Source: Kipferlia bialata (Eukaryota). From it: a DNA stretch of 33,132 nucleotides. The number at the start of each line of letters is the position of its first letter. The stretch's first letter is position 1. Of the stretch, positions 150-32,394 are shown one piece after another. The stretch covers positions 1 to 33,132 of the forward strand of contig BDIP01000080.1 in assembly GCA_003568945.1 (NCBI GenBank), written 5' to 3'. Below the pieces are notes generated by a model. It searched no databases. It saw only the letters and a list, made by a program, of their open reading frames with translations, and was not told the origin of the DNA. The position numbers were made by a program, and so were the translations under genes.

Positions 150-185
<36 letters not shown>

Positions 186-678: not shown

Positions 679-714
<36 letters not shown>

Positions 715-770
715 TCTCTAACCCCCTAGGTATGGCCCAGGTGTCCCCCAGCCTGACTCGCGGTGTCACA

Positions 771-808
<38 letters not shown>

Positions 809-1466: not shown

Positions 1467-1506
<40 letters not shown>

Positions 1507-4500: not shown

Positions 4501-6485
4501 AATTCATACTGATTCTGACCCCATGCTGTGTAACGACTGGCATCAATAATCAGTATATATATTATTATGTATTTGATCACGTTTATATTTATATATCTCT
4601 ATCCCTTCTGACCCCATGCTGTGTGACGACTGGCATCATCGGGGCCATGATCATGTGTCTGCTGATCACAATCACAGGTAGGGACTGGGGTTCAAGACTA
4701 CAATATATATCAGTATCTATATATGTACTCATGTACAGTATTCTGGATGTTGATCTAGCAGTGATAGGTAACTGCTTTCCACTGATACTCTCTATCCTTT
4801 GTCTCCATATTGTGTCTGAGTACTATTGTCACTCCTCTGTAACCCCCCACGTGATCGTACTCTATTTGCATATATATATATAGTTGTATCCATGTGACTC
4901 TCATGCCCCATGTTTGGCCAGATAATCTGTCTCTCTCTGTATATATATATATATATATATATATCCTAACCCTCAGGCATTCTGTGCCCCATGTTCGGCC
5001 AGATTGATGCCGATCTCATCTTCTACGATCCATCCTTCATACCCGTCGTGCTGCAAGTCATCCTGTTCAACATATTCCCGTTCATCCCACTGGCAGTATC
5101 ATTGGGGTACGTTAATAGTAATATAAGTATAGAGAGAGAGATGTGTATGCATGTAGTATCATCCTGTTCAACATATTCCCATTCATCCCGCTGGCCCTCT
5201 CACTAGGGTTCGTGGATACATTTTACATTGTGTTGCCACTCTCTCTCTCCCTCTCTCTACACCCCCTCTTCACCCCAGGGCCATGTACATCGTTGTGTTC
5301 CCCAGTGTCACTATCGACATGAACACATACGAGACAATCATTGTGCCACCTAGCGAGAGGTATTCATCCCACATTCTATGATAGTATTGCTGTATTTAGT
5401 ATCAGTATTTAGGCAAATACATATACAAAGTGTTTCACTGTACTGTGAACACATACGAGACAATCATGGTACCACCGAAGTGTATATACGTATGTATATA
5501 CTCATGTCAGGTTCACCTTTGCCATGCTGTTTGGGTCTGACCTCTATCAGTACGAGGGCATGGCCTGCATGGGGGGAGGTATGTATTCATGGCCGCGATA
5601 TATATATATATATATATATGATTGTATCTTTACTGTCACCCTCCCCCCCAGGCTGTTCCTATGACACCCCCCCTGTGGCCATTGCCCTGGTCAACTTGAT
5701 AGTCAGTGCGGTGCTGTGGCTGCTACTCACTTGGATAGTAGGTATTATATATAATAGATATACATATATATGACGTGGATAGTAGGTATTATACATAGTA
5801 GATATACATATATATGACGTGGATAGTAGGTATCTCCTATATTGCATATATGTAGTAATTGTAGTAGATACTTGTCAGTGCGGTGCTGTGGCTGCTGTTG
5901 ACTTGGATAGTAGGTATCTCCTATGCCATTCATTCATTGTTTTGAATACAGTGATTATCTCAAATATTGTAGAATCAATTTCCAATGTATAAATGTGTAT
6001 TGTATAAGCCGTACGTCTCTGTTTGTAGTATCAGTGTCACTATCACTATATACATTCCCCCACCCCAGGTGAGTGGATGAGCAAGAACGGCAGTATCAGT
6101 ATGAGTATGTGTCAGAATGTGTATATATCTATGTATATATATATGTGTCTATATATCTAACCATAGGGGAGTGGATGGCCAAGAACGGCAGCCCGGGTCG
6201 CAACCCCCTGCAGCTACTCCACAGGTAATGGTACATATAGATGTTGTATATTCTAGTGTTACTAGTGACTATATAGATACTCACTGTTCTTCATATGATA
6301 TATAGATATATATATATATAGATATGTCCTTCATTGACAGTGACCAGTATTGTATTCTCATGTCACATGATAGTAGTAGTATCAGTATATTCTCATGCCA
6401 CATGAAAGATACTATCAGGGTATCATCATTCTATTCTCATGCCCCAGGAGCTACTGGTCCGAGAGTGTCCCAGGCCAGAGTCAAG
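55..6485 (+). CDS. ABCA: ABCA exons 1-19: TM1, first exocytoplasmic domain and TMD1
   Basis: Exons: 55-142, 411-466, 1038-1138, 1609-1704, 1866-1949, 2185-2243, 2556-2645, 2869-2917, 3347-3393, 3574-3650, 3844-3968, 4312-4374, 4618-4677 (AT acceptor inferred), 4977-5106, 5279-5359, 5511-5578, 5652-5741, 6167-6224, 6448-6485. Translation includes FLIPIVIVIVLWQW, WSGFTLYAQHAVEKA, VVEKKQGKLEALRVMGVRDPLYWLSW, several hydrophobic helices and RSYW. Confidence 0.85.
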
Positions 6486-12400: not shown

Positions 12401-15166
12401 CTCTCTCTGTCTCTCTCTACATGACACTGACTGACTGAGTGTTTCTCTAGTGACATGAACTCACCCCCTAGGCCCGTGCCAACATTGTGACCCTTCTGGA
12501 CAGAAGTGCCCAGAGCCTCACATACAGTGTCAGCCAGGTAGTTATATATATATATATTACATACTATATATATATATATATATTTGTTGCGTGTTCACTT
12601 TCAGTGTCAGCCAGGTAGTTATAGTTATTAGTAGTTATATATACATATATGTCACTGTATATACTTTAATATGTATGTTGTGTGTTCACATACAGTGTCA
12701 GCCAGGTAGTTATTAGTAGTTATATTATATATACTATATTATGTATGTTGTGTGTTCACATACAGTGTCAGCCAGTTAGTTATTAGTAGTTATATATATA
12801 TAATACAAAATATGTATATATGTATGTATATGTTCACATACAGTGTCAGCCAGGTATAGACTTAGTAATGCATATGTATAACTATTACATAATATGTATA
12901 TATATGTATATATTATGTGTCCCATAAAGTGTTAGCCAGGTAGTTTTATGCCATACAGTTTTGTTTCAGATGTGTGGTGTTCTCCACTTGCATCATGTAA
13001 TGAATGCTCTTGTATTTGATAACGTGTCCTTCTTCATTTCGAGTATTCCATTTGATACACTCTACCATTTAGGAGTATCTGTGTTATATACCATGTCACT
13101 ACTTGTGCATTTTCCCGGACTCACCCCCAGTCCACCGCGACCAAGGTCTCCTCCTCGTATAGTGGAATATTTACATATCCGCCACTCTCTGTATTCCCAT
13201 AGAATTGTTCAACCACTTGCAAGTACTCACCCCCAGTCCACTGAGACCAAGCCTCACAACAGTATACAATGTATATATACTCCATGCATTCCCATTCTCT
13301 ATACTGATACCAGTCCACCGAGACCAAGCTCCCCACCCTCCTGTCCAGACTGGAGGCCAGGCAGGGCAGGGGGTTTGAGTACATAGAGGACATATCATGC
13401 ACACAGGTGTGTTGGAAGTAGTGTATATATACACTATATATACAATATTCAATGAGACATTTCGCGTATCCACTATGTCCCCCTCTGTCACCCGCCCCCT
13501 CACCCCCAGACCAGTCTGGAGGAGGTGTTCATCAATGTGGGCCACAGGTACAGTATGAGCACTATTGTAGTGAATATGTCTGGAATTAGTTACAGTGATA
13601 CTCATACTTACTTACAGATACTGACATTGCGGTGTCGCTATCAGTCTATGTGGTATCACCTGTATATGTATGCATTGTATACTCATGGTATCAGGGCCAT
13701 GGTTGCCTCCCATGCGCAGTGTCTGGCCAACATGCATCTACCTGAGGGCACGGACGAGAGCAGACGCATAGTGCAGCAGGTATATATTTGTATATGTATA
13801 TGTATATCACATGTATATCACACATATCATTTCCCTTTCCTCTCTCTACCTCTCTGCCTAGTCAGACTTGCCGTATGGATCTATATGTGTGTAGTTACTT
13901 ACCCCTTACACTAGCGAGAGGTTCTTGCCTGGGCATACGTGTGTATACGTATATATTTATATATATACATATATGTATGTATAGTAAGATTGTATGTCAA
14001 TATATATATCTAACCCTAGCGAGAGGTGCTAGCCTGGGCAGGCACTGACAGCTCTGAGCAGTGGATTGAGTCCACTCCCCCTCCTTCCCCCTCCCCACAG
14101 ACACAAAGTGCAACAGACAGGTATGTGTATGTATAGGCATATACAGTTGTAGTATATACAATACACTGCACGTCTGACAGATGCTATGCTTGTATATTGT
14201 ATGGTACACAATATTATGGTTGTACGGTCATTACACAGACATCTAGACAGAGTGCCTCAGATCAGGTGTATGTACTCATGTATGTTGTGCTATATCCATT
14301 CATTAATGTCACGTTCCCATCTCTATGTCTTACCCCCAGTTCAGCTTGTATGTATCTATATATATATGGAGTATTCCCTCTATGTCTTACCCCCAGCTTC
14401 AGCTCTGTGTCTGACAAGTATATGTATGAAAGTGTGAATATGTGTATTACATTTGTGTGATAGGATCCAATGTTGTGCTTACCCCCAGCTTCAGCTCTGT
14501 ATCTATATACATATGGAATGTTTCCTCTGTGTCTTACCCCCAGTTTCAGCTCTGTCTCTGACAGCAATGCAACCACCTCGTCTAGTACAGGGGAGATCAC
14601 AACACATGGGAACAAGGAGAGCAGGTGAGGGAGAGATAGAATGTGTGAGAAATGAGAGACGTGATGTGATATTGGTATAGTGATTGTCACTCCCTACCGC
14701 TCATCATAGGAGAGAGAGAAGGAGACGCGAACAAGAGGAGGCAGAGGCAAAGGTATGGGGCTCTCATACATACCTACATCCTAAATGCTATATCTCTCAG
14801 TTCTGATCTTTGAAGAGCCCACTGTACAGACCTAACACTTGTAATGGTAGTGACATGTCTGTGCTTATCTCAGTATTTGATCTTTCTGTAGTGTCTCGCT
14901 ATTTGTTTTGTATTGAGCCGTATGCATGTGTATCTGACCCTCAGATTGATGTGCTCAACCCACCTCTCAAGAGGCCTAGATACGCCAGGGGTCTCTTTGC
15001 CAAGCTGTGGGCGGTGGACAGGTGAATATTATTGTATTTATACATATGTGTACATATGAGTATATATATGATGTATTTATAAGTAATAGGTTTGCATGTA
15101 GTAGCATATACTTACTAGGATACATACTATCATTTGTACGCTGTGGGCTGTGGACAGGTTGTAATA

Positions 15167-15200
<34 letters not shown>

Positions 15201-18178
15201 GTGTATGTGTATTCTTTTATCCTTCTTTCACTCTCTCTCTATATACTATGCCCATCTCTCTCTTACCAATAGGACCCGTTCCTGTGGCCTCATGGGTCTC
15301 TCTACACATAACAGTGTATTATATATAGTGTAATATACGTAGAGTATATGTCTCTTACTCATAATAGGACCCGTTCCTGTGGCCTCATGGGCATCTTCCT
15401 CCTGCCCTTCCTCTGCCTCATGATATCATGGCTGCTGGTGGCACATCTCTTCCCATTCATGGTTGACTTGGTGGATGAGTATGTGGGTAAGGGAGAGACA
15501 TACATATATATGTGTATACAATGTATCGCTTGGTTGACGAGTATGTAGGTAAATATATATTTATATACTATATACAAGTGTAACTAGGCTACCGTGTCTC
15601 TGCATATACTATCAGTTGTGCATCTCAATCATATGCCCCTGACCCCCCAGCTGGCTACATCTATTTATAGTATAAATTTTATACTGGTATGTATTTCCTC
15701 ACCCACCAGGTGGCAAACGTATATTCATTGATATATATACCCCTCACCCCAGCTGGCTACATCGATGAGGCTGAGGCAGCCTGTCAGCTCTGTATGCTCA
15801 GCAACTACGTCCCAGACAACCTGGTTAGTGTGTAGTACTCGCAGTATGAAGTATAGTTGACTGGTCTTACCCACATTCTAAGTCTCTATGTATACATATG
15901 TTGCCTATCCCCAGTGTGCCTATCTGTGCCTGATTACCAGCCCCCAATTGATACATGGTAATATGTATATATATATATATATGTATATGCCAGTGTCTGA
16001 CATTCCAGTACCCCACCGAGCCCTGCCAGGGGTATGACATGCTGGGCAACCCATATGTATGCACACTGCTAGACCAGTACAAGGGTATGTAGTGTGAGAT
16101 ATACGTGTACATATGTGTAGTGTGAGATATGAGTGTACATATCTATGTCTGCACACTGCTAGACCAGTACAAGGGTATGCTTATGAGAGATATACGTGCA
16201 TATATACGTCTGTACACTGCTAGACCAGTACAAGGGTATGACCGTATATATGCTTCTTACACGCAGTGTTCTCTCCCTGTTAGTTTTCCATATATACGGT
16301 CTACAATCATAATCAGTATCCATCTTACAGTGTCTGTACTCTGCTAGACCAGTACAAGGGTATGAGTACATGCTATATAGTTCTAGTTCCAGTTCTAGAC
16401 CAGTGCAAGGGGATGCTTATGAGAGATATGTGAATAGATATATGTATATATCAAGGCTACGAGTATAAGCTTACTTCTAGTACTCTATTCTCTCGATATT
16501 CTCATGTTCAGTTCCGAAACCATACTAATCAGCATATATCTTAGTATATTGAAGAGGTACAGTTCATATCCATCTAACAGTCAGGCAATGTACAGTTCCA
16601 AGAGGCCACAGTGTTTGGTGACCTTTCTCCTAGGTATGGTGATCAGACACTTCTATATGGTTGTAATTATGACACGCGTCTATTGCACATTACATTACAT
16701 GTATTCTAATATCAGCATGAAGCGCTATGCCGTACCCGTGTCCATGACTGTGTTTGATGGGACTAGGTTCCCACTTGACAAGGTAGGGATATCTCCATTG
16801 TGTCACTCTATCCTATTTGTATTCACGGTAGTCTCCGGTCCAAGGAGGAGAGGGCTGTCTTGGTTGTACTGTGTGACTTCTACTCAGTGTATATATATTG
16901 ACTGTCTCACCCCAGCTCTCTGATGTCTCCTCCATGTCCAAGCAGGAGACGTCCATTGACATGTATAGTTATATATGTCTATGCCAATATATACATTCAT
17001 ACTGACCCCAGCTGTCTGATGTCTCCATCATGTCCAAGCAGGAGAGGGCAGAGTATGACCCATGGGTGGAACTGGCACAGCTCGTGGAGGCAGAGGTACA
17101 TATGTAGTGTACTTCATACGTATAATGATTCATCGATTTTGCTTTTGGGAGTATTGGGCACAGCTCGTGGAGGCAGAGGTACAAGGATGTAGTATATGGT
17201 ATATATGTGTGAGTGGATGAATGTATGTATGTGACACTGTGTCTGGCACAGCTGGTAGAGGCAGAGGTAGGAGGATGGCATAATGTTTTCACAATTGTAT
17301 TGTATTATATCGTTTATATAGGTGTATATGTGTGACACTGTGTCTGGTACATATAGTAGAGGTAGAGTTATATGGGTACTGTACAGAAAGTGTATGTATG
17401 ATTATGACATAATGCATGGTGTCTGGCACAGTTAGTAGAGGCAGAGGTATGACGTACGCACTGTGTTGAAATATATTGGAATTTGTTCTTCTGAACAATA
17501 TTGTAGCGTGTCTGACAACTGGTATAGGGTATTCATGTTAGTGAGAGTTGTCTCACGGCCTCTGTCTCTCACCCCAGCGATCCCTCCTCCCTACTGACCT
17601 AGATGGCACCCCTATTGTGGCTGCCCATCATGGGTCCCTGCCCCCAGCAGAGTCCATGGTCATTAAACAGGTATGAATGGATATATATCAGTCATATCGA
17701 ACATGTGTTTCATATATTCAATTATTAGCACTGTAGTCCTTGTATAATGCCTAACGCCAGATTGCCCCCACCTACTCCAACGAGAGAGAGCACGTCGCCA
17801 ATGACCTGGAGTACCTACTGCTACAGGTATGAGGGTGTATATATATGTGTATATATGTTGATATATATGTGTAGGTGATACCCTTGATGTATCTGCTACC
17901 ACAGGTATGGCATGTTTGTAGATAGAGTGCATTGTGATGTATACAGAACAATGATGATTACCACACACTGTCCCTCACCCCAGTCGGAGGTCTCTGACAT
18001 ATATTATACGCATAGTCTCTCACTCTCTCCCTCTCTCTCTCTGTCTCACTCCATAAAATCATATGTATAAACGCATTGTGACTCACCCCAGTCTGAGGTC
18101 TCTGACATATACACAGCGGCTGGGCTGGATGACCCATACCTCCCAGGTATATGATAGTATGCCATACCTCCATATATA

Positions 18179-18222
<44 letters not shown>

Positions 18223-21200
18223 GATTGGAGTATGCGTCATGTCATTATGAGTCATTCAGTGCACCATCCCTCTATGACCCATACCTCACAGGTACAGCAG
18301 TGTTATACGTATTCTGTGTGTTAAGATACTTAGTGTAGAATACATAGTATTGTGAACGCATATGCACATATATACACTGCCAGTATACACAACCATCCCT
18401 CTGCCCCCCAGGTGTCAAGGGCCTAGTGGCCCAGTACACAGCATAGTATGACATACCTACCTACATATGAATATATATATATACTGTGTTCAATTGTCTT
18501 GTATCATATTCACTTATCATCAGGTGTCAAGGGTCTAGTGGCCCAGTACCCAGCTGCCATCGGGGAGAGATACGCCAACAACGTGACATACGACCACTAC
18601 CTGGACACATTCGCAACCATCGTAGGTATCGCCTATCAGATGTCTTTTCATATTATACACACACACATAAATATATGTATATATATAACATATTACAGCA
18701 CATGGTCCTCGACATACGACCACTACCTGGACACATTCGCAACCATCGTAGGTATGGCATCTATCAGATGTATCATCATTACAGTATAATAATGACCACT
18801 GGATGCTATACCGATATGCAGAACCGGCATAGTGTATGTAATTCTTCTCTCACAAACACTATACGTTATAATATCGTGTGGGCCTCTTGTTCAACTCCTC
18901 TGACCCTCTCATGCCCAGGTGTGGATGAGCCCCTCTATCATGATGCATGGACACTTGAGAACTACGTCATGTACCAGTTGAGGTGTGTATATGTATATGT
19001 AGATGTATGTAAATTATAAAGATTGTGCATATGTTACCTGTATAGACACTGTTACTACGTCATATATATAGTATGTGTATAGTATATGTATAGTATGTGT
19101 AGTGTATATAGTCACTCATTAGCAGGTCCCACTACACCCGTGCCTCATCTGATGCAAACTACATGGAGGAGCCGGAGGTAATTGCAACAGTATAATATGG
19201 GTATATAAAAATATATATATTTAATGTAGTATGAATACTTGTAACTACTACATGGAGGAGCCAGGGGTATATAGAGTATATTATATATATATATGTTATG
19301 GTGTGAATACTTAGAAGCAACTACATGGAGGAGCCGGAGGTAATTATTATAGTATAATACATATATGCATTGTGTCAAGATGTATATATGTATATATATT
19401 TACATTGTGTTATGATTACTAGTAACAGCCTCATGGAGGCGCTTAAGGAATGAGGTTTATAGTGTGGACAGTGGTGTTCATGTTCATTTGTACACACTGA
19501 CCCCTAGGCCATCCTCCAGTCTGTTTTCAGTATATGGTATACATAGTATATATAGTATACTAATGTCTGTGTATGAGCACCCTAACCTTCAGGCCATCCT
19601 GCAACCCCTCCGAGATCTCTACTCCCGTGTCCCCTTAATGACCCTGTACCTCAGTGACTCCCCTGACAGTCCTGTCCAGCAGCCCACACTGCAGACATTC
19701 ATGCCACCTATGACAGGTAGAGACTGGACACACATGTATATATACTAAATGTATGCTATATGTATAGACATTGAGTCAACGCTGCAGACATTCATGCCAC
19801 CTATGACAGGTGCATAGCATATATATATGTAGTGATATATATACATATATGTACACCATGTACTCTAATTATATAGTCCACACTCCAGACATTCATGCCA
19901 CCAATGACAGGTATATCATATGTATAGAGTAGATGTATATAGTTATACATAGTGTTGATATATATACTATTTACTCTGTGTATACAGACATGTAGCCAAC
20001 ACTGCAGACATTCATGTCACCAATGACAGGTAGACACTGCTCGCATTATTCTATATCTACATATGGATGTTCTATATATGGCACACCCAGCCTGCTAGGA
20101 GATATATTCTATATAGTGATTGGTATACAGTTCTGACCTCAGGTGTGCGTCCCTACAATGCCCTGCAGCTCAGGATGAGTTGGACCGGGATAGAGGTGTG
20201 TATGTGTCTTGCATCTAAGTAACTGTTCTCTGCATAATGATGTATACTATATACTTCTCTCCCCTGTACCACCTCACCCCCAGGAGGGCACTGCCGAGTC
20301 CTATGTGGCCAAGACATCAGAGACTATCAACGCACCACCCAGCACACCTAGGTACCATCAGATACATGTCCTTACCTACTGACAGTATAAATTTACGTGC
20401 TTCCTTCACTGGCTATACTGTGGAGTTTGTCTGTGTGTCGTCCTCTCTGGCTCTATAATCATGTCTCCTTCTCACCCGACAGAGGGTCGGGTCTCTTCTC
20501 CAACCCCTTCTCTCTGCCTCCCCACGTGTCACTGGTCAATGACATACATGCCAAGGTACAGCGGCAGTTTGTGGTCTATTTGAGATCTTTCTCATAGGTC
20601 ATTTGAGTCTTCTCATATGTGTACGCTCTCTGCTCCGTAATTTACTTCCAGTCTTGTGTATACATATGTATATGTCTGGTCTAACCCCCTAGCTGAGTGG
20701 CGCTGCCCTCCGATGCTATTAGATGACTCTTGATGTGTGTATATATACTAATATACATATCTATAGTAAGAATATTCGCATTCCCGTTGTCTAACCCCTT
20801 AGCTGAGTGGCGCTGCCCTTAGGTCTGCCACGGGGGAGACACGGGACGGGGCAGGTACACATGGATATGTGTTATTGATAGATATATACACGAGATGGGG
20901 CAGGTACTGCAATATCATACAAGTTATTATGTATATATTTCTATAAACAGGATGTTAACCCCAGGCATCACGGCCTCCTTCCAGCCCTTCAAGTACATAT
21001 GTATATATATATATATATATGAGTGCATGTGCAATGCTATATACCCTCTACCCCCAGGCATCACGGCCTCCTTCCAGCCATTTAAGTACACCAGGGACTA
21101 CTCCTTTGCAGTGCTGGTGGAGACCATAGCCCTGTTCACTGCTGTCATCTTTGTGTCCATAGCTGTCTTGAGTCTGCTACCAGTCTTAGCATATCAGCCA

Positions 21201-24200
21201 GGTGGAGACATTATATATGGACATATATATATATATATGTAGTTGTATGCTGCATGTACTTGCATAACAGCCAGGTGGGGTCATGGATATATATGTATAG
21301 ATATGTACATATATGCATGATACACTTGCATACCTTCCTCCAAGAGGAAATGTGCCACTTGAGTGCATGTCTAACCCGCAGTGATGGAGAGAGAGCTGAA
21401 GCTGTTCAGTCTACTACAACTCAAGGGCATGCCTGCATACGTGTACTGGATCACTCTGCTCGGATACGACATGGCCCTGTGTGAGTGCTACATGTATATT
21501 GTTATGTATTTGTATATGTGTATATATGTATATACCCGATTTGTGTAGGTATACCATCAAGAGCTGTGGTTCTGTGATTGGGCATTACTCGGATACGACG
21601 TGGCCCTATGTGAGTGAAGTATTATGTTTATGTGTACCTATGAAGGCATTTGTTAATAGCCACTTGATGACCTTCTCTGACCCAGGCACCTGCATGACAC
21701 TGTTCCCCAATGTATGAACGGATATAGATATATTAATATATGGGTGTATATTAGTCTCTCTATGCTATTCTAGCTATTCTGACTCAGGCACCTGCATGAC
21801 CCTGTTCCTCTATGTCACGGGGCACCTATTCAGCATTGACGCAATCACAAGGTATCGGCATGTATATATATGCTATATATATATACTATATTTACTACAT
21901 ATATAATGGTCATAGACGCAATCACAAGGTATCGGCCTGTATCATATATATATATCACTTTAGTGTATATACCGTTTTGTTATGAATACATATTCGGCCT
22001 GGCTACTATATTGGCCAAGTTTCCTATTTGTGTCTCTCCCTGTCAGCCCAGGGTGTCCTTCCTGGCCAGTGACTCTTTCTGTTGTCATGACACCATACTA
22101 ACCCTCTGACTCTCTCTCTCTCTATACTATCCTTTTTTTCTCCATACTCTTTCCCCAGGATGTCCTTCCTGGCCCTATCTGTCTATCATCTGATATCTGA
22201 TATGAATATACTATATATACATCACCAATCTCATCCCCAGGATGTCCTTCCTGGCCTTGGTAGTTGTCATGACCATCATGTACTTCAACCTGGTCTGCTT
22301 CGCCATGCTGGTATCAGCATTCCTGCCCAACACTAAGGTACCGTGGATTGTAGTATTTAATAGTATGTACCACTGTCCTCCCCAACACTAAGGTTCACAT
22401 GCAGTGCAGTGCATGTTGGTGTGGCTCTTGAAGTATCCCATATCTCTCATCCAGTATAGTAAGTCAATACAGCGTTACACATACTGCTCCATACCCTAAC
22501 TCCCCTAGGTCTCCAGTGTCCTCCTCAATGCCTTCTACAGTTGCACAGTCGTGGTCACCATGATATTCTTCAGTGTCTATGACCCAGTCACCCTGTGGCA
22601 CGCACTCATACCACCCATGGTACGGAGTATACACGTACTACATATATATTTGTGTGTGTCTATATGCAAATATGGTTCACTTCTGTGTCTATCACCATCC
22701 TCTGCCCTCCCTCACCCCCTAGCTCTGCGTGACCCTCATCGGCAAGATGACATTCAGGGGATACAACATTGTGTCTCTGTTTGAGTCTCCCCTGATGCCC
22801 TTGTTGGCCATAGCAATAGGGGTCGGAGGTACTGTAGATGCTGAGTATTCATATATTCATATCACTCCAATGTGAACATTTACACTCGTCTTGTTACTGG
22901 CACCTAGCCATAGTCATCGTCTACAGTGTTATGCAGAGTTGCCCCATGTCTCACCCCCAGTGGTCTATCTGATCCTCGCTGTGTACTTTGATGCAGTCAT
23001 ACCAAAGAAGGTTGGTGCATGACATATATATTGGATATAGTTATATAGATATTTGTGTATATATTTCACTATGTCTTTGAAACCCTTGTTTATATGTATA
23101 TATGAGCACAGTATTTGTATAGTCATGTCCAAGAAGGTGGGGGGATGCCATGTATATATGTATATATAATAATCCATATATGTGTATATATGTATTTGGG
23201 AGAAGGAAATTTGCTCTTGTCGTGTTCTAATATACATCCTATCGTTAACTGGATACTGCATCGTTCAGCAGTGACTGCCAAGTATGTTCATATATACAGC
23301 AATACCCTCACCTCCAGGGCACTCTGGGTGTGAGGCGGTCTGTGTTCTACCCCCTACTGAGTATCATAGACATAGGGACCATGCTGCTAGGGTACATCAT
23401 GTGCTGTGGGGTCAGGTACGATGTGATATGTATTATATATATTTATATATATATATATACATATAGTCTATGAACTATGTATATCCATAATGATGTCTCT
23501 CATGTGCTTAGGTCATTTACATATTGGGTTCATGTATATGAAACTATGTGTATATAGGCACACGTTGAGAATATGTGCTGGTGAGATGGGTAATAAATGG
23601 TGTTCTTGACCTTGCATGGTGGCTGACCCTAGATACCGACCCAGGCATAGGAGGTCTCCTGTCCAGGCGCAGGGTCAGCCAGAGTACATGAAGGAGGCGG
23701 GTGAGGGGACATGTATGTATTTATATAGTTTACATATTTCTATATACATGTATGTATATAGAGACAGAGAGATGTCACATTGGCCTGAGTACATGACCCA
23801 GGCCCCGATCCCTTCATGCATGGTATTAGTGTATATAGATGTAGTTATATATATATATATATATATGTATGTATATATCTACATGTCTCATATCTTCTCA
23901 TCGCCAGGCCCCGATGCCTTCATGCCAGTTGGTGGTATGCCTGATGAGTACTCGGTGATAGCAGCCAGGGAGACATACGAGGTATATATATGTATATATA
24001 TATATGTGTGTGTGTGTGTTCTACCTACATATATACAGTGATAGCAGCCAGGGAGACATACGAGGTGGGAGGGTGTTGTACACTATATACTTTGTACATG
24101 AGTTCTATGGATATTTATCATAACGAAAACATCTCACTACCAATGTACCCACTCCTCTCACCCCCCAGGCGAGTCAGGCTGGGGATGATGTCAGTCCCCC

Positions 24201-25347
24201 CGGCCACCCCAGAGTGGACCAAGGGGAGGGCGAGGCACTGGGTGATACCGACTATGCACAGAGAGAGGGGGAGAGAGAGGCAGAGGCAGAGGCAGGGGTG
24301 GTCAGAAGTGCCCAGCTGGATGGAGGTATATATATGTATATGGGTGTGACACTCCAAATGCGCTACTGCCCCACCCATCAGAGTATAGCATGTACTATCC
24401 ATTGGTGTCTACTCGCCCTACCCTACAGTACTCTAGTCATCTGTTATAGTCTTAGCATCGTATATATGGATATGTGTATACACTTGCTGTGTTCCCTTAC
24501 CATCCAGTCCGAGAGATCCAGCCTGACTCCGACTGTCCCATCGACCAAGGTCACCCAGACACAGAGGGGATGGGAGGGGGAGAGAGAGAGGCAGACGACG
24601 AAGAGACGTCCATTATGCCCACAGTGTTTGCAGTCAGAGGCGGGGAGGTAGTGGTTGACTCTAGTCTTTCTATCCCACTGCACATACACTGAGATCGTCG
24701 GCTAGATGTCTCAACTATTATACCGTATGTTTACTCACCCCCAGAGAGACCACAACACTGTCTGGGACGGAGGGTTCGAGAGGGACGACTTTGCAGGTAT
24801 ATTCATGCATATATATGTGCATATATATATATATGTGTGTGTGTGTATATATACGGCATATGTGCATGAGGAGAGGGAAGACGTTGCAGGTTGGTGTGCA
24901 TATGTACATACCCATATGTACATACCCATATGTACATACCCATTTGTATATACCCATATGTAAGTATTCCGCAGAGACCATATTCTTTATACGACACCGT
25001 CATGTCCCTCACCCTTAGGCCTTGCCGGTATGCACTCCTCCTCTGTGGACAGTGACACCCAGAGCAGTGCCAGGTGTGTGTGTGGTGTATATACATGTTA
25101 ATATGAGCTCATGCATGTAATAGTATAGTATATATACACCCAGAGCAGCAGTGCAGGGTATGGATATACTGTTGGTACATGAATATGAATATGTGATACA
25201 GTATCTGTACCAGACCAGCAGTGCTAGGTGTGTATAGGATACACATATGTATATGAGCTCAGTAATGTATGCACACATATGTTGTTTGCACATATATGTA
25301 TCATATCACCCAGGTCCAACCAGAGTATACATGGATATTGGGATTTA

Positions 25348-25382
<35 letters not shown>

Positions 25383-28300
25383 GTCCATGACTCCTCTCTC
25401 ACCTCAGGTCCAACCAGAGTGTGGACAGTGTCACTGGCATCACCACCGCAGACACAGGCTCACCCACATTCCTAGTCAACCAGGTACTGTCATGTATACA
25501 CAAGGTGTATAATACACTTTCCAATGTCTTAGCCAGCGAAGGCCTCCCTACATTCCTGGTCAACCAGGTGTGGACTGGCACTGGGACTATGCTGTGTATT
25601 GATGGAATAGTATCATTCTACACTTCCCCAAATGCCCATATCAGTATTGTCCCAATATATCCTGCCAACTCTCTATGTCTTATTACTATGCCATTCTGTC
25701 ACTGTCTCCCCTGAATCACTTTGTATCCATACCCCCACCCCTCACCCCCAGTCTGTGTCCGGTCTGAGTCTGGGTCTGGTATGCTCATATGCAATATATA
25801 TATATATATATATATATATTATCTATATGTATACACCCCTCACCCCCAGTCTGTGTCCGGTCTGAGTCTGGGCGACATGAGCTCAGTCAGTGACCACCAG
25901 GTGGGGGATATGGAGATATATATGTGTAGATGTATATCATATGTAGACAAATTTCATATGTAGATGAATATCCGTAGTATAATCATATGTATCACTATCA
26001 GTCAGTGGACACCAGGTGGGGTTGTGTATGTGTTTCTATGGTCTAGTGGTCACGTGAATTGTGTATATAGGACATATAGTAGGTTTGCATCTTGACTAAC
26101 ACCCAGGCCTCCCCCCTACCTGGTCAAGCAGAGAGTCAGGACGGAGTGGCAGCAGTGGCCACTGACAGAGAGGCAGGGAGAGAGACTGGGGTAGAGACAC
26201 CCCTTGTGGAGAGAGAGGCAGCCCAGCCCGACAGTGCAGGTGTCTATCTATCACATATACAAGCACCATGGTGTAACAAATAGCTACGTGTCTTATAGGA
26301 TAGCTATGTGTATATGAGGTATGTGCACCATATCCCTGCCCTCATACCCAGACCCCCCTGTGTCTCCAGACCCCAGTCCAGCACAGCCAGCACTGCCACC
26401 AATAGGTACATGTTTATATATATACATCTATATATATACACTATATATCTGTTGGGTATATATGTGTATCACATTATACTTGAATACCACCAATAGGTAC
26501 ACGTACTATACATGTGTATACTGTACATTTGATTAGTACATGTACAATATATATACTATATATTGGATTTCTCTGTGAAGTCTCTGTTGACCTGTGTGGT
26601 GTTTAGTGTACATCACTAGGATAGTCAGTTCTTACGCTGTGTTGAGCGTCTGCATCCATGTATCATGGCGTCATTCAATAGTGTCCCTCACCCTAGGCGA
26701 CCTCTATAACACCAATGTGTTTGAGACATCAGTCACATCCCAGCCCACCCTGCTGGCATCCCAGACAGAGGTGAGAGATGATATGTAGATATATATACAT
26801 CAGTCATTAATGATTACTGTACTATGTGAGTGTATCTCTCTCACCCCCAGGCCTCTGTGTCAGACAGTGATGACCAGAGGGACAGGGGGAGACCCATAGC
26901 CATATCCCTGCCACTGCTGCCAGGTGAAGGGGTTGATTGTGTATATACCTCTAGGATGATAGGGTAACTACATTCAATAATAGTACAACCATATACCTAA
27001 TCCTGGCCCTATATTGAGTACAGTTCATATACATTGCCCCCTGATCCTAGTCCCCTGTCGCAGGACCAATGTGCATGACGTGAGGGACACTGTCATGAGA
27101 CACAACCCGGTGGACATAGATGTGATGGATGAGAGGTATGTGGTTCATGCATTGGGTGCTATATGTATATATACATACATTATTACTATATATTATAATG
27201 GCATTACTGACGTCATGGATGAAAGGTGGGGTACAGGCATGTGTATATACATATATACTATGTAGAGTGACATTGTTGGGATGGACGTCATGGATGAGAG
27301 GTGGGGGATACTGGCATTAGATGTAGTACATATAGTATATAGTGGCATTGTTGACATAGACGTCATGGATTAGAGGTATGGCGATTGTGGCAGTGTTGAT
27401 GTGTGTGCCCTGTGTTCTTTCTGGCTTCCAGTGGCCATATCACAGTATATACTCATTCTGACCCCCAGGAGGGAGGTCGCCACCTTCACCAGGGATACCC
27501 ACCCACTCATAGTGGCCAACATGCAGAAGTACTACCCACCCAGGTATGTACATATATATAGTATCATCAGTCTGTTCATCAGACTCTATATACATATGGC
27601 AGAGTAGATGGCAGAAGTACTACCCACCCAGGTACTGTAGGATTGTCACTGAGTGTATACCAGTGTTCAAATGATGGTTATCAGTGTCATTTGTGTATTG
27701 TTTGGCACTGATGTTCTGTATCTCCTTTACCCCAGATTCGTTGCCGTGCGTGATGTCTGTTTCTATGTGGAGAACAACACGGCAATGGCACTGTTGGGGC
27801 CTAATGGGGCAGGTCAGGCCGCGTAGGGTGCATGTGTATATAGTATATGTATAGTATATGAATAGTATATGTATAGTGCAATGGGGCAGGTCAGTCCACG
27901 TGTTGTGTATTGTATACACAGTGTTTAGTGTAGTATACATGAGTTGTATGCCGCCTGTAGGGCAAGTTAGTCTACGTCGGACCCATGTATACTAGTGTCT
28001 ATTCTGTATGATGTGACTGATGTGTGTTCTCTTCCCAACTGTGTCAGCATCTTCCATGTATTGTATGTGTCGTCTGTGACCATATACACGTATGAATATC
28101 AGTGAGTGATGTATTGGTATCAGTATCATATGCAGTCACCCACCAAGTGCACAATGTACCCTCAACTCTGTCTGTCCATGCCTTCCCCTCACGTCCAGGC
28201 AAGACCACCACCATCAGAGCAGTCACGGGACTCACAGCTCCAACCAGGTGTGTGATTAGTACTGGTGTTGGTCCCGTAGTTGTGTACATATCAGCTTTAC

Positions 28301-28693
28301 CATCAGGGGCACTGCCTCTGTGTCAGGTGACAATATCATATATAAATATACATATATATACTATATATGTACCCTAACCATCAGGGGCACTGCCTTTGTG
28401 TCTGGTGACAATGTGGCCAGAAGGCCAGCCAAGGTCCAGAAGCACCTGGGCCTGTGTCCCCAGCATGACGTGTGTGTGGTGGTGTATATATACTTACAGG
28501 ATCTATGTCTTTTAGTATCGTACATCAATGGATGTATAGCAGACATTTATATTATATATATATATATACATATATCTATTAACCATTCCCCTCTTCTCAC
28601 CCCAGCTACTTCCCCTCCCTCACTGTCCGGCAGCACTTCTCCCTGTTCTGCAGAATCAGAGGGGTCCAGAGGAAGATGGTGTGTAATACTTAC

Positions 28694-28733
<40 letters not shown>

Positions 28734-31700
28734 AATAGTGTAATACCTACTATATAATTAGTATATATAATTGATTGCTTTCTTGGAGTCTGTGTGTATT
28801 CTGTTGTGTCTCTCTCACCCCAGGAGAATGCCGTTGTGGAGTCTCTGGCCAAGTTCCTGGACCTCTACCCAGCCATAGACAGACGGGCAGACGCACTCAG
28901 CGGGGGGATGAGGAGGAGGTGAGTGGTGTATATATACAGCTAATATGAATGGTAGAGGATTTGTCAGTTCATCTGTGTTTGTAGTTTCAAGTACGACCCT
29001 TGTGTGACCTCTGACACCCAGACTGTCTCTAGGCATAGCCCTGATATGTATATCATATATATATATATCTTGATATGGTATATATGTATTGTATAAGTAC
29101 TCTAATATCCCAGACTGTCTCTAGGCATAGCCCTGATAGGATCGCCCTCGGTCTTAGTACTGGACGAACCCTCAACGTGAGTGTATTGGATATATAGTCT
29201 GGATTCGGATGTGCTCGTTTCTTGACCAACCCCATAACTTGTTGGAGTGGTATCTGTATATGTGTATACTGTAGATATCCCTTCTGCACTCACACTAATA
29301 CCCAGCGGTCTAGACCCCATGACCAGACGGAGTATTGTATACAAACACTCACCAGTATATGTATATACTCCTATGAATACACTATGTATTAGATATCTAC
29401 TAATACCCCAGCGGCCTAGACCCCATGACCAGAAGTCATATATGTATATACAAATAGTGTATATATGTGTCATATCCACACTCTACTCACCCCCCAGCGG
29501 CCTAGACCCCATGACCAGGAGGAGTGTGTGGAAGACAATCGACAAGGCCAAGGAGCACAGGGTGCTGCTACTCACTACGCATAATGTGAGTATATATACT
29601 GTGTATATACTATATATACTATATATATATATATATATAGTAGACCATCGACAAGGTCAAGGAGCACAGGGTGCTACTGTTGACAACACACAATGTGAGT
29701 ATATATACAATGTATATACTATATATATACTATATATATATATATACTATATATATAGTAGACGATCGACAAGGCCAAGGAGCATCAGGTGCTATTACTC
29801 ACTACACACAATGTGAGTGGGGTATACTACTTCTACATATATAGTATGTATGTGTGACCTGAGTGTGGTGTATCACATCCTAGTATTCAGAGTGTGTAGT
29901 TCATCCTATCACTTTCATTCACTCTCGGCAGAGACCCATGACTCTTTACCTCTCATGTTCTAACACACAAGCAAGATGTACTTGTATATTCCTATCACTG
30001 TAGATGGAGGAGCCGATGCCCTCTCTCTCTCTCCCTTCCTATATGTCTATATATACACATAAGTATTGTAATGTATACTCATCAGTCTCTTACCCCCAGA
30101 TGGAGGAGGCCGATGCCCTGTCCCAGAAGATAGGCGTCATGGTGGCAGGTATATATATATGGTATATATAGGTATATATACTTATATGTATAAGTGAAGG
30201 ACTATATACAGGTGAGTATATTTATATGTTTGAAGATAGGCGTCATGGTGGCAGGTATGTCTCAGTTTAGCGTATCCTATATATCATCGTATAGGTTATA
30301 TTGGTATTAGTTAGTATAGATCAAGACATTGGCGTCGTGGTGGCAGGTATATGAATAATAGTATATGAACAATAGTATATGAATATGTATTGTATATACC
30401 AGAAGATAGGCGTCCTGGTGGCAGGTGGATATGTGTATATATGTATATACATGTATGACAACACATATCTGTAATGATATAGTAGTGTATACCAGAAGAT
30501 AGGCGTCATGGTGGCAGGAAGACGTGTATGTGGGTATAGGTAAATACATATACCCGAGAATTGGTTGACTGATGTGTATTCACCTGACCATGTGTTCCAT
30601 ATATATATCTGATGGGTATATATATTTACTGGTTTACCAATGCCTCACCCTAGGCCAGATGAAGGCCATCAGGATATATATACTTAAACATACTTGTATA
30701 CAATTATACTACTAAATACTACTGAGTATATATTCTCATCTCACTCCCAGGCCAGATGAAGGCCATTGGGATATATATATTTATGGTCATTCACATGGAC
30801 ATGTACATATATTCGTGTATATATTCATCTATCGCGATACTGACCCCAGGTCAGATGAAGGCCATTGGGTCTCGGTTCCACCTCAAGGCGAGATACGGCA
30901 GTGGCTACATCATATCCGTCAAGCATGCCGCAAACAACGGTACAACCATACACAACAGGTATAGATTTCCATACATACATGTATACCAAAGAAAGCATTG
31001 AGACAACCATACATAACAGGTATGAGGTGTCTATACTTGTAGCTAACACTACCCCCAGGCTGTTCATGATCAACAGACACATTGTCAACACAGCCTCCCA
31101 GGAGACACCCGTGACAGGTTGTGTATGTATAAATGTATATATATATACATAGATACTGTATACTGTATACTCCCAGGAGACACCCGTGACAGGTACAGAC
31201 ATATAGTGTGATGATTTATAGAAATACATACATTCGTACATATTCTATACACTATGTACTCCCAGGGAAACCCGTGACAGGTATATGTATATATAGTCCT
31301 CTGTGCAGCTAACTCTAGGCCGTGTTGTGTCCCAGTTCACCCTAGCCTATGGGCACCCAGTCTCAGAGATACTACAGGTGGGTGGTCATATCTACCCACT
31401 CCCTGTCACTCCTTGTCACTCCTTGTCACTTGTAGTCCATCCACTGACACATTACACTGTACATGTCACAAAGCATGATTTCTCAGCACCATTTGCCCAC
31501 CTATATTGTTTTATGGATGTATATACTTGCATATACTGGTATATGCTTGTATACACTCGTATATACTGGTATATGCTTGTATATCCTTGCATACACTCTC
31601 TCTGTTCCTCACCCCCACCCCAGGAGTTGATATCCCTCAAGGCAGAGGGTGTGGCCTTTGAGTATGGCCTAGTGTTCTCCAGTCTCGAGGGTGCCTTCCT

Positions 31701-32279
31701 CAATGTGGTCACTAGTGCAGTGCAGGAGACATCGGCAGGTGGGGATATATCCAGATACATATGTATACATATAATCACATACATATATATATATATATGT
31801 ATATGTGTGTGTATGGCCATATAGTATGCTGAGGAGTAGTGTAGGAGACATCGGCAGGTGGTACATTTAGGAGTCGGATATACGTTTGTATCTACCATTG
31901 AGACCGCTCAGTATATCATTGGTATATTTATATAGATCTCCATGCACCCTATCTTCCTAGCCCTGACCCCAGGCACCAATGAGGAGTCTGACGTGTCAGT
32001 ACCCGAGTGGGACAGAATGAGGAGAGGGAGGTATGACATAGTTATATAGATATAGTGTGTATGATAGACAAATATATGCATGCATAGTGGGACAGGATGA
32101 GGAGGGGCACATCGATATTATTATAATATCATATCATATATAGAGTTATATGTTGTGGTACTATGACCCATCGTCCCTTGACCTACACATTCCCAGTACA
32201 GTAGTATTCAGTATGCATATCTGTCTACATCCCCTTACCATTGTATGATCCCTTGTCCCCTGAGGTATATATATATATT

Positions 32280-32310
<31 letters not shown>

Positions 32311-32394
32311 TAATTGTCACCTGACCCCAGGTCCAGTGGGGAGGAGGGCAGTATCAACGGCAGCTCATTCATAGTGGACGAGTCCACAATGTAA
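55..32394 (+). CDS. ABCA: ABC transporter subfamily A (full transporter, two TMDs + two NBDs), 5'-partial, 95 exons in window
   Basis: Manual splicing gives one continuous frame with consistent phases across 94 introns (93 GT-AG, one inferred GT-AT). ABCA hallmarks: VVEKKQGKLEALRVMG / YWLSW, RSYW, NBD1 GHNGAGKST...GICPQ...FSGGMLRRL...ILDEPSTGLDP...TSHDMPEAERLGD, LKAKFGTGF, TSLEEVF; second half VMERELK...KGMPAYVYW, DIDVMDER, NBD2 GPNGAGKTT...GLCPQHD...LSGGMRRRL...VLDEPSTGLDP...TTHNMEEADAL, LKARYGSGY, SLEGAFL; stop TAA 32392-32394. The first exon begins after an acceptor at 53-54, so the start codon lies upstream of the window. Symbol is family-level only. Confidence 0.95.
721..1415 (+). repeat. 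Exon-echo arrays flanking exon 3 (three acceptor-side copies, three donor-side copies)
   Basis: TATGGCCCNGGTGTCCCCCAGCCTGAC follows an AG at ~730, ~844 and ~941; the exon 3' end (NRTMDALV, with GT in the first two copies) recurs at ~1213, ~1298 and ~1378. Confidence 0.9.
2263..2361. other. Assembly gap (N run) in intron 6
   Basis: Run of N between exon 6 and its donor-side echo. Confidence 0.99.
6916..11475 (+). CDS. ABCA: ABCA exons 20-31: first nucleotide-binding domain (NBD1)
   Basis: Exons: 6916-6990, 7360-7415, 7677-7756, 7978-8054, 8299-8389, 8561-8652, 9315-9402, 9599-9687, 10327-10429, 10779-10869, 11221-11259, 11393-11475. Walker A GHNGAGKST (8009-8035), Q-loop GICPQ, signature FSGGM, Walker B/D-loop VILDEPSTGLD, H-loop TSH, then LKAKFGTGF. 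Confidence 0.95.
8745..9045 (+). repeat. Donor-side echo array of exon 25
   Basis: ATGCAGCACATGTGGATAGTGGGCATGCTCAAG(G/A)GT at ~8750, ~8845 and ~8940, plus a short remnant at ~9032, separated by TA/TG microsatellite. Confidence 0.9.
10228..10305. other. Assembly gap (N run) in intron 27
   Basis: Run of N between the last visible acceptor-side echo and exon 28. Confidence 0.99.
11656..15021 (+). CDS. ABCA: ABCA exons 32-42: regulatory domain R1 and inter-half linker
   Basis: Exons: 11656-11708, 11941-12051, 12151-12200, 12472-12537, 13314-13406, 13510-13547, 13695-13779, 14020-14120, 14544-14624, 14710-14752, 14945-15021. Contains the ABCA motif TSLEEVFI (from 13510) and an acidic E/G-rich insert (11941-12051). 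Confidence 0.85.
12590..12945 (+). repeat. Donor-side echo array of exon 35 (five copies)
   Basis: TCACATACAGTGTCAGCCAG-GTAGTT-like units at ~12594, ~12684, ~12752, ~12832 and ~12929. Confidence 0.9.
15368..23415 (+). CDS. ABCA: ABCA exons 43-67: TM7, second exocytoplasmic domain and TMD2
   Basis: Exons: 15368-15486, 15753-15823, 15994-16084, 16585-16633, 16716-16782, 17012-17095, 17578-17670, 17761-17826, 18092-18146, 18524-18625, 18919-18982, 19126-19177, 19593-19716, 20143-20195, 20284-20351, 20483-20555, 20803-20854, 21058-21201, 21382-21480, 21788-21851, 22241-22337, 22509-22619, 22723-22828, 22961-23010, 23318-23415. Includes IFLLPFLCLMISWLLV, VMERELKLFSLLQLKGMPAYVYW...YD and YLILAVYFDAVIP. 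Confidence 0.85.
16140..16420 (+). repeat. Donor-side echo array of exon 45 (four copies)
   Basis: CACACTGCTAGACCAGTACAAGGGTATG-like units at ~16147, ~16210, ~16337 and ~16395. Confidence 0.9.
23633..26923 (+). CDS. ABCA: ABCA exons 68-79: long low-complexity linker before NBD2
   Basis: Exons: 23633-23700, 23908-23981, 24169-24325, 24508-24647, 24745-24796, 25019-25073, 25408-25483, 25850-25900, 26107-26239, 26352-26405, 26697-26770, 26851-26923. All have GT/AG ends, GC-rich coding composition and compatible phases; rich in D/E/S/P/G with no recognisable motif. Confidence 0.75.
24899..24962. repeat. 14-nt minisatellite (CATATGTACATACC)-like, about four copies
   Basis: catatgtacatacc catatgtacatacc catatgtacatacc catttgtatatacc within intron 72. 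Confidence 0.8.
27051..32394 (+). CDS. ABCA: ABCA exons 80-95: NBD2, R2 and C-terminus
   Basis: Exons: 27051-27135, 27469-27543, 27736-27812, 28199-28247, 28385-28471, 28606-28678, 28824-28918, 29114-29176, 29498-29585, 30100-30148, 30850-30958, 31059-31117, 31319-31377, 31624-31738, 31973-32030, 32331-32394. Walker A GPNGA|GKTT is split by an intron; LSGGMRRRL, VLDEPSTGLDP, TTHNMEEA, SLEGAFL; ends ...DESTM*. Confidence 0.95.
29301..29818 (+). repeat. Echo arrays around exon 88 (two acceptor-side, two donor-side)
   Basis: CCCAG-CGGYCTAGACCCCATGACCAG at ~29301 and ~29407; TIDK.KEH.VLLLTTHN+GTGAGT at 29643-29700 and 29760-29818. Confidence 0.9.
30231..30770 (+). repeat. Echo arrays in intron 89 (four donor-side, two acceptor-side)
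   Basis: GAAGATAGGCGTCATGGTGGCAG-like units at ~30232, ~30323, ~30399 and ~30491; AG-GCCAGATGAAGGCCAT at ~30652 and ~30749. Confidence 0.9.

What the first reader, a model, noticed from the sequence alone, without database searches (positions are those of the whole stretch)
29533..29818. Strong synonymous-echo case: the NBD2 H-loop exon end is present in three codings
Seen: exon 88 ends aca atc gac aag gcc aag gag cac agg gtg ctg cta ctc act acg cat aat|gtgagt. Echo 29643-29700 reads acc atc gac aag gtc aag gag cac agg gtg cta ctg ttg aca aca cac aat|gtgagt (7 synonymous, 1 replacement codon). Echo 29760-29818 reads acg atc gac aag gcc aag gag cat cag gtg cta tta ctc act aca cac aat|gtgagt (6 synonymous, 1 replacement). 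There are no indels and the donors are intact. The upstream acceptor echo at ~29301 also recodes GLDPMTRRS silently (ggt/ggc, aga cgg/agg agg). Both donor echoes begin right after a TAG, so cassette use is conceivable but would lose or duplicate catalytic sequence (inference).
Basis: seen in the sequence. Interest (0 to 1): 0.85.

Follow-up and report, generated by a model that had tools for sequence, protein, structure and literature searches.

The report
Spare exon ends fill protist introns
In a transporter gene of the free-living protist Kipferlia bialata, short copies of exon ends sit in the introns beside 55 of 95 exons and differ from the exons mostly at silent positions; they are likely untranslated duplication debris that likely records other working versions of each exon brought in by recombination.

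Summary
Observation confirmed. Exon 88 of a 95-exon Kipferlia bialata ABCA gene is followed by two copies of its last 17 codons plus donor (7 silent/1 replacement and 6/1). This is the extreme case of a gene-wide pattern: 110 exon-end copies at 55 of 95 exons, 5' ends only upstream, 3' ends only downstream, 133 silent against 95 replacement codons (silent share 0.58; controls 0.21-0.24 for neutral decay, 0.35-0.38 if the exon alone is constrained). Cassette use is unlikely: the TAGs lack the branch-point signal, stops are not depleted across copies, and the one spliced RNA contig reaching exon 89 carries a fourth coding that fits paralog GIQ79794.1. Most likely the copies are untranslated tandem-duplication debris whose silent differences come from other working versions of the exon: for exon 88 partly the paralog, which shows exon-sized sequence exchange with this gene; gene-wide not the paralog (3 of 161 diagnostic codons), so probably diverged alleles. 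The source is inferred, not shown. The scan noted similar single arrays in two other genomes (unchecked notes). Not found in print in my searches.

The parts
55..32394 (+). ABCA transporter gene, 95 exons, 5'-partial, 2494 codons plus stop; 110 exon-end copies lie in its introns
   Evidence: public model P0006 identical at 2469 of 2469 aligned residues
29114..29176 (+). exon 87 (Walker B, LVLDEPS)
   Evidence: aligned to paralog P0001
29306..29333 (+). acceptor-side copy of the exon 88 start, with its own AG; 3 silent, 0 replacement codons
29412..29435 (+). second acceptor-side copy of the exon 88 start
29498..29585 (+). exon 88, NBD2 D-loop end to H-loop (GLDPMTRRSVWKTIDKAKEHRVLLLTTHN)
29586..29641 (+). 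used donor GTGAGT and TA-rich spacer of repeat unit 1
29642..29700 (+). echo 1: AG, 17 codons (7 silent, A>V) and donor GTGAGT
29701..29759 (+). spacer of unit 2, close to the spacer of unit 1 (36 matches, 2 mismatches in the first 40 letters after GT)
29760..29818 (+). echo 2: AG, 17 codons (6 silent, R>Q) and donor GTGAGT, followed by unrelated intron
30004..30025 (+). decayed acceptor-side copy of the exon 89 start, ending in a CT run (score 12, below my counting threshold)
30100..30148 (+). exon 89 (MEEADALSQKIGVMVA); four counted donor-side copies follow it

Best explanation
The two echoes are copies of the last 17 codons and donor of exon 88 lying in the next intron, likely made by short tandem duplications across the splice junction, likely never translated, and their silent differences were likely brought in from other working versions of the same exon by recombination. 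Steps: (1) shown: copies always include the exon end that adjoins their intron, so a duplication from inside the exon to inside the intron leaves the exon whole and puts the spare end in the intron; (2) inferred: the spliceosome takes the innermost sites (first donor, last acceptor), so the spare ends are spliced out; (3) shown: copies decay like non-coding DNA at replacement sites (stops, lost GT/AG, drift to A+T); (4) shown: they nonetheless differ from the exon at silent sites about five times more often per site than at replacement sites, more than duplication in place allows; (5) inferred: either the copy or the exon was afterwards (or at birth, by unequal exchange) written from another functional coding. 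For exon 88 the donor is likely in part the paralog GIQ79794.1, whose exon 88 peptide is identical and which shares exon-sized near-identical DNA with this gene; for the rest of the gene the paralog is excluded, leaving diverged alleles (silent diversity about 0.12-0.18 would be needed) or a closer copy not seen here.
For: Polarity: 111 of 113 copies touch the adjoining exon end, 0 of 113 on the wrong side; shifted controls gave 0-1 hits. Units are tandem: within-intron alignments run across copy and spacer at 71-87% for long units; median intron length rises from 146 nt with no copy to 500 with four. Not translated: 6 of 67 replacement changes are stops (4% expected), GT lost in 11 of 70, AG in 4 of 40, only 8 of 70 donor copies have an acceptor as good as the weakest 5% of real ones, 3 of 70 distal donors would give an open frame. 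Replacement changes follow intronic A+T drift (48 of 79 S>W, 0.64 expected) while silent ones are near-symmetric (67 of 121, 0.74 expected under drift, p 8e-6). Silent share 133 of 228 against 0.21-0.24 and 0.35-0.38 in planted-copy controls run through the same detector and 0.39-0.52 in a local-conversion model. Copy against copy, both intronic: 46 silent, 43 replacement in 38 pairs. pS does not grow with flank decay (0.187 in 23 copies with recognisable flank, 0.196 in 84 without) while pN does (0.031, 0.046). Echo 1: spacer 36 matches/2 mismatches but 7 silent codons at about 13 silent sites. Paralog exchange: paralog-type RNA contigs differ at 7 of 7 codons at the exon 82 start and 8 of 51 letters in exon 83, but at 1 true letter of 74 in exon 85, 2 of 65 in the exon 88 5' part, 0 of 30 at the exon 89 start (read by eye).
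Against: No donor sequence was seen: neither the paralog's DNA nor any second allele could be read. Where the paralog's residue differs, copies keep this gene's residue at 141 of 161 codons and take the paralog's at 3, and pS does not track paralog identity (rho -0.13), so the one donor known cannot explain the gene-wide bias. Without exons 88 and 3 the silent share falls to 99 of 188 (0.53; p 3e-4 against 0.40 but 0.04 against 0.46). Against the two-lineage null the S>W symmetry is only p 0.08. Silent counts are not overdispersed among copies (chi2 117, df 109), so tract-like import is not shown, and echo 1's 7 silent codons are only a p 0.013 tail among 110 copies. That the near-identical RNA pieces come from the paralog and not from another allele or gene is inferred. 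No RNA contig at 99% or more was laid on this gene (0 of 14), so innermost-site splicing is not directly shown for it.
Confidence: 0.6

Rival explanations
1. Purely local history: tandem duplication, neutral decay of the copy, silent drift of the exon and conversion among neighbouring units; the extra silent bias is chance, shared ancestry among copies, or a faster silent rate in coding DNA.
For: Explains polarity, stops and A+T drift with no outside donor. Where the exon differs from all its copies the change is silent in 10 of 11 cases. With transitions only and six exchanging positions the model reaches 0.52, close to 0.53 seen without exons 88 and 3.
Against: Observed transitions are 126 of 265, for which the model gives 0.39-0.44; planted-copy control 0.35-0.38 against 0.58; one copy per exon side still gives 84 of 142 and 89 of 165 silent; copy-private changes are 36 silent to 39 replacement, about twice the neutral share; echo 1's young spacer with a silent-saturated coding part (Fisher p 4e-4).
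Confidence: 0.13
2. The copies are kept free of replacements by indirect selection, because they are often used as repair templates that overwrite the exon (copy-to-exon conversion), so a damaged copy is a liability.
For: Exonic parts stay about 92% identical (265 differing letters over the 110 copies) while 84 of 107 flanks are unrecognisable; 19 of 110 copies are identical to the exon; pN is lowest in NBD2 (0.017); replacements are slightly conservative (BLOSUM -0.15 against -0.50, p 0.053). Fornicates lack NHEJ and Rad51A and lean on homologous recombination (PMC8516963 section 8).
Against: Stops, the most harmful template errors, are not depleted (6 of 67). Conversion frequent enough to select would also erase silent differences (inference).
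Confidence: 0.1
3. The echoes are used: as cassette exons, through distal donors, or by programmed or frequent DNA deletion that joins the exon 5' half to an echo 3' half, giving proteins from alternative codings.
For: Donors are intact and as strong as the used one (4.7, 4.7, 5.3); both echoes are 51 nt, phase 0; V and Q occur at these positions in 10 and 4 of 119 scored homologue hits. The spliced RNA contig's 6 differences equal the number echo 1 has from 29570 on, so an exon/echo 1 hybrid cannot be excluded by count.
Against: No branch-point signal before either TAG (scores -4.2, -3.6); no GT in the exon at the joint; a cassette would repeat the strand that carries the H-loop; stops and lost splice sites across copies; an RNA contig with echo 2's difference count reads through its donor unspliced; the paralog supplies a simpler source for the fourth coding.
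Confidence: 0.08
4. Misassembly: haplotypes or paralog pieces stitched in tandem by a short-read assembler.
For: The window has two N gaps with copies beside them and two letter errors; one copy seen in X1 is missing from the window; echo 1's own contig was not displayed.
Against: Unbroken X1 contigs of 1883, 864 and 823 nt with 0-1 other letters span copies of exons 80, 81, 84, 87 and 88 at single-copy depth; X1 holds 0.96 of sampled words over 24000-33000; copies carry stops and unique flanks.
Confidence: 0.03

Closest known systems
Tandem genomic duplication model of intron gain (Rogers), as reviewed in PMC3443670 (passages seen)
   Same: Short intragenic tandem duplication that touches coding sequence and leaves the protein unchanged.
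   Different: There an exonic AGGT is duplicated and a new intron is born; here the duplicate spans an existing junction, no intron is gained, the old intron just grows and acquires spare splice sites.
Tandem duplicated, mutually exclusive exons (Dscam; PMC3236188, search listing only)
   Same: Neighbouring exon-derived copies that differ mostly at silent sites.
   Different: Those are whole exons with both splice sites and are translated (recalled); these are exon halves with one splice site, with stops not depleted.
Gene conversion between paralogs, including microsatellite-associated conversion among exon-bearing genomic repeats in Schistosoma SmPoMuc genes (PMC2576457, passages seen)
   Same: Patchy, exon-sized near-identity between family members; repeat units separated by simple repeats.
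   Different: In SmPoMuc the repeated exons are expressed and the introns are homogenised; here the exonic part of an unexpressed copy stays alike while its intron flank decays, and the known paralog explains only the NBD2 part.
Introners and insertions with target-site duplication or DSB-repair introns flanked by direct repeats (PMC3443670 passages; PMC9860276 listing only)
   Same: Direct repeats around a stretch of intron.
   Different: Spacers form no family: 36 hits between different introns were all TA/CT/CA low-complexity; repeats are 14-53 nt and always contain an existing splice junction.
ABCA subfamily full transporters (human ABCA1/3/4/7; K. bialata GIQ79794.1)
   Same: The host gene is an ordinary ABCA.
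   Different: Only the intron content is unusual.

Membership tests
ABCA transporter gene | two ABC ATPase domains and two membrane domains on one chain, best matches in ABCA | tested here: met
   ABC_tran on 2 of 12 exon peptides above cut-off; exon 88 peptide hits ABCA3/7/1/4 chains; public name ABCA for P0006 and P0001 with PF00005 and PF12698
Cassette or mutually exclusive duplicated exons | each copy has its own acceptor with branch point and its own donor | tested here: not met
   TAG sites score -4.2 and -3.6, real minimum 0.16; 8 of 70 donor copies have a passable acceptor
Cassette or mutually exclusive duplicated exons | copies appear in mature mRNA | tested here: inconclusive
Cassette or mutually exclusive duplicated exons | copies free of stops | tested here: not met
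   7 stops in 110 copies, not depleted; the two focal echoes themselves have none
Intron gain by tandem genomic duplication | the duplicate creates a new used donor-acceptor pair | tested here: not met
   open 95-exon model needs no copy; public model agrees at exon 88; paralog joints fall at the same exon borders
Introner or transposon insertion with target-site duplication | inserted stretches form a sequence family across loci | tested here: not met
   within this window only low-complexity hits between introns; other loci could not be searched (no genome)
Paralog gene conversion | patchy near-identity between otherwise silent-saturated paralogs | tested here: met
   exons 82-84 and 86 diverged, exons 85, 88 (5' part) and 89 (start) near-identical in RNA contigs (p 1e-6 to 1e-3 at 0.5 per codon); assignment to P0001 is inferred
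Paralog gene conversion | the copies carry the paralog's diagnostic residues | tested here: not met
   3 of 161 diagnostic codons; exon 88 has no diagnostic residue, so the focal echoes are untested
Allelic recombination in a highly diverse population | silent diversity among isolates near 0.12-0.18 | not testable with these tools
   both runs come from one sample; value solved from pS and pN
mRNA- or cDNA-templated insertion | copies continue into the neighbouring exon instead of the intron | tested here: not met
   flank against neighbouring exon 3.2 of 10 letters, control 3.4

The most novel reading that the evidence does not exclude
Kipferlia introns are continually rebuilt from duplicated exon ends by a recombination-only, mismatch-tolerant repair system (no NHEJ, no Rad51A, two Dmc1 paralogs), and each spare end is a snapshot of another working allele or paralog; one genome would then hold, in its introns, a readable archive of its species' silent diversity, and its spliceosome would have to pick the innermost of several equally strong splice sites at more than half of all exons.
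Probability: 0.35. Interest if true: 0.75.

Novelty: new variant of a known kind. Interest (0 to 1): 0.56.

Why it matters
The parts (tandem duplication, gene conversion) are known; the scale and rule are not ordinary: 55 of 95 exons carry spare ends, always on the side that leaves the exon whole, with donors and acceptors nearly as strong as the used ones (3.9 against 4.2; 7.9 against 8.6). If this holds genome-wide it gives a direct mechanism for intron growth in the intron-rich fornicate (124,912 introns, PMC5874029), a natural test of exon-definition splicing in a reduced spliceosome, and a way to read past allelic diversity and recombination in a lineage whose sexual cycle is, to my recall, not described. 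It also warns annotators: the public model of this gene takes one such copy as an extra exon.

Tried and rejected
No whole genome is held, so other genes and the paralog's DNA could not be read. Reads could be laid only on 27000-29588, not on the echoes. No listed run is on record as RNA; X2 is a guessed RNA run whose cover falls in 13 of 30 bins, those with exons. Its lack of 99% matches to this gene is no evidence of silence. Two single-exon protein searches found nothing (proteins over 2000 aa were not searched). A degenerate exon 88 motif found 0 matches in metagenome contigs. Pfam named only 2 of 12 exon peptides. Rejected: cassette use; spacer as mobile element; mRNA-junction origin; paralog P0001 as gene-wide source, my first reading; detector bias; dinucleotide microhomology at breakpoints as a general rule (exon side 0.24 against 0.27 background, intron side 0.42 against 0.39); nested splicing between paired spare donors and acceptors (numbers are unmatched, e.g. 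intron 48 has donor copies only). Dropped before counting: hits under score 14 (19 of 132), 2 hits not anchored at an exon end, 1 copy beside an N gap; 3 more copies with N in the flank were left out of the flank test (107 of 110). Earlier scan notes on this genome: none. The Paramecium preprint (passages) had its diversity table as an image, so I cite no value from it; that some microbial eukaryotes reach silent diversity above 0.1 is recalled. Supplements of the cited papers were not opened.

Full report
What the window is. The window holds one intron-dense gene on the + strand. A splice-site model curated by hand gives 95 exons, 7485 nt and an open frame of 2494 codons plus stop; all 94 donors are GT. 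The public protein P0006, named 'ABC transporter A, ABCA, partial [Kipferlia bialata]' on a contig of 33132 nt, is identical to it at 2469 of 2469 aligned residues. Exon 88 is 29498-29585 and matches the D-loop to H-loop stretch of human ABCA3/7/1/4. A paralog, P0001 (GIQ79794.1), is identical at 1751 of 2325 aligned residues and at all 29 residues of exon 88. A third K. bialata ABCA, P0011, is 57% identical to P0001 in the searched region; no closer full-length paralog was listed.

The observation. Confirmed letter by letter: echo 1 has 7 silent codons and A>V, echo 2 has 6 and R>Q, no indels, donors GTGAGT. Random placement reached 13 silent codons in 0, 1 and 0 of 20,000 runs. Three silent letters (29567, 29579, 29582) are shared by both echoes against the exon. 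The spacer after the exon and the spacer after echo 1 are close (36 matches, 2 mismatches); the intron after echo 2 is unrelated. The simplest history is one duplication that made the TAGTAG junction and a second that doubled the unit (inference).

It is a gene-wide pattern. Ungapped matches between each exon and its two flanking introns: 113 at score 14 or more, against 0, 1 and 0 with exons shifted to other introns. 111 of 113 touch the exon end that adjoins the intron, none lies on the wrong side; after dropping 2 unanchored hits and 1 beside an N gap, 110 copies at 55 of 95 exons remain, median 25 nt, median spacing 107-124 nt. No copies lie in non-adjacent introns except GA-repeat noise and NBD1/NBD2 homology (23 hits). 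Differences fall 69/36/160 on codon positions 1/2/3; 133 codons are silent and 95 replacement; pS 0.194, pN 0.041. Planted neutral copies recovered by the same detector give a silent share of 0.21-0.24, and 0.35-0.38 when the exon also drifts silently; observed 0.58. A backward model of conversion among 2-6 neighbouring positions gives 0.39-0.44 at the observed transition share and at most 0.52 with transitions only. Against my reading: without exons 88 and 3 the share is 99 of 188, and silent counts are not overdispersed.

The copies are probably not translated. In this gene the branch point is fused to the acceptor (a CTNAY-like motif within 16 nt in 85 of 95 acceptors), as described for other fornicates (PMC6679479, passages). 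The TAGs before the echoes have none and score -4.2 and -3.6; real acceptors average 8.6, lowest 0.16. Gene-wide, 8 of 70 donor copies have a passable acceptor, 3 of 70 distal donors keep an open frame, GT is lost in 11 of 70 and AG in 4 of 40. Stops are 6 of 67 replacement changes against 4% expected. Replacement changes drift to A+T as intron DNA should; silent changes are nearly symmetric, as between two codings.

Reads. Contigs of DNA run X1 and guessed RNA run X2 (one sample) were laid on 27000-29588 (16 of 93 pieces and 12 of 51 loose ends shown). X1 confirms the window over contigs of 1883, 864 and 823 nt, shows three contigs that begin with the TA-run junction at the 29533 equivalent (two are listed as pieces, with 8 and 4 differences; the latter is not in the window), and shows a second gene with the same exon borders. 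X2 covers exon bins only. Its loose ends encode KEVALCTRDQ and PGSVQKHLGL, the residues of P0001 (read by eye). One X2 contig is spliced from a coding of the exon 88 end with 6 differences straight into 30 letters identical to exon 89; the echoes have 8 and 7 differences over that span. It fits the paralog; by count alone it could also be an exon/echo 1 hybrid. Another X2 contig with echo 2's count reads through the donor unspliced. No X2 contig reached 99% (0 of 14), so splicing of this gene itself was not seen.

Where the silent differences come from. A copy born in place and then left alone cannot fall below pN/pS of about 0.5; the data give 0.17-0.21. Copies also differ from each other silently (46 to 43 in 38 pairs), and pS is the same whether the intron flank is still recognisable or not, while pN rises. 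Identity drops from about 0.9 to background within 3-6 nt past the donor. So the exonic part has spent much of its history under coding constraint on another molecule, or is rewritten from such molecules (inference). For NBD2 a donor is at hand: paralog-type contigs are silent-saturated in exons 82-84 and 86 but near-identical in exon 85, the exon 88 5' part and the exon 89 start, the mark of exon-sized conversion. For the gene as a whole the paralog is excluded: at 161 codons where it differs, copies keep this gene's residue in 141 and take the paralog's in 3. Diverged alleles remain; solving pS = 2d + pi and pN = d + (0.05-0.1)pi gives pi 0.12-0.18 and d 0.02-0.035. This could not be tested with one sample. 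Fornicates lack NHEJ and Rad51A, have two Dmc1 paralogs and are argued to depend on homologous recombination (PMC8516963, section 8 read); Dmc1 stabilises mismatched base triplets (PMC6719624, abstract). That this machinery makes and rewrites the copies is my inference.

Comparison and novelty. It works like an intragenic tandem duplication plus gene conversion; it fails the tests for cassette exons, duplication-born introns, introners and cDNA-templated inserts (membership table). The K. bialata genome paper counts 124,912 introns and its main text has no word starting 'duplicat' (PMC5874029, passages). Eight full-text searches on Kipferlia introns, partial exon duplication, cryptic sites and conversion (listings only) showed no description of this pattern; subscription journals and supplements were not seen. 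Two unchecked notes of this scan report single exon-end arrays or copies with silent bias in an annelid and a sea urchin gene, so isolated cases occur elsewhere; the density and strict polarity here are the new part.

Verdict. Observation confirmed; cassette reading not supported; best reading 0.6: untranslated exon-end duplicates carrying silent letters of other working copies. New variant of a known kind; interest 0.56.

Noticed in passing
window 4615-4677 and 4522-4545: Exon 13 has a homologue in the paralog but its acceptor reads CAT, not CAG, and so does its upstream copy; the public model skips this exon. Non-canonical acceptor or a lost exon.
   Followed up: partly
window 28475 and 28630: Two likely letter errors in the window: X1 reads A at 28475 (restoring a GTGAGT donor) and X1 and X2 read C at 28630.
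   Followed up: yes
window 10168-10327: The public model P0006 carries an extra LDPIARHTVWTR before exon 28, apparently an acceptor-side copy taken as an exon beside an N gap.
   Followed up: partly
acceptor-side copies, whole gene; e.g. 29306: 20 of 40 acceptor copies lie a multiple of 3 nt from the used acceptor (p 0.02, one of two tests) and 7 of 40 keep an open frame, including 29306 (64 extra codons); donor copies show no such bias (25/22/23).
   Followed up: partly
17 exons with copies on both sides: In 17 of 17 such exons the 5' copies end before the 3' copies begin; in exons 12, 21, 75 and 88 they nearly tile the exon.
   Followed up: no
run X1 record 8, at the 29533-29588 equivalent: A single-copy-depth DNA contig with the same TA-run junction and 4 differences from exon 88 that the window lacks: a collapsed third echo or an echo in the paralog.
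   Followed up: partly
window 15915-15957: A 43-nt exon-like block with good acceptor and donor between exons 44 and 45 that fits no open frame of my model; old copy or frame error.
   Followed up: no
window 23783-23825: A donor-side copy of exon 68 runs directly into an acceptor-side copy of exon 69 inside intron 68.
   Followed up: no
window 31319-31377: Exon 92 has no counterpart in the paralog's public protein.
   Followed up: no
window 9988-10201: All three acceptor copies of NBD1 exon 28 read CTA where exon 28 has CTC, matching NBD2 exon 88 at that codon.
   Followed up: no
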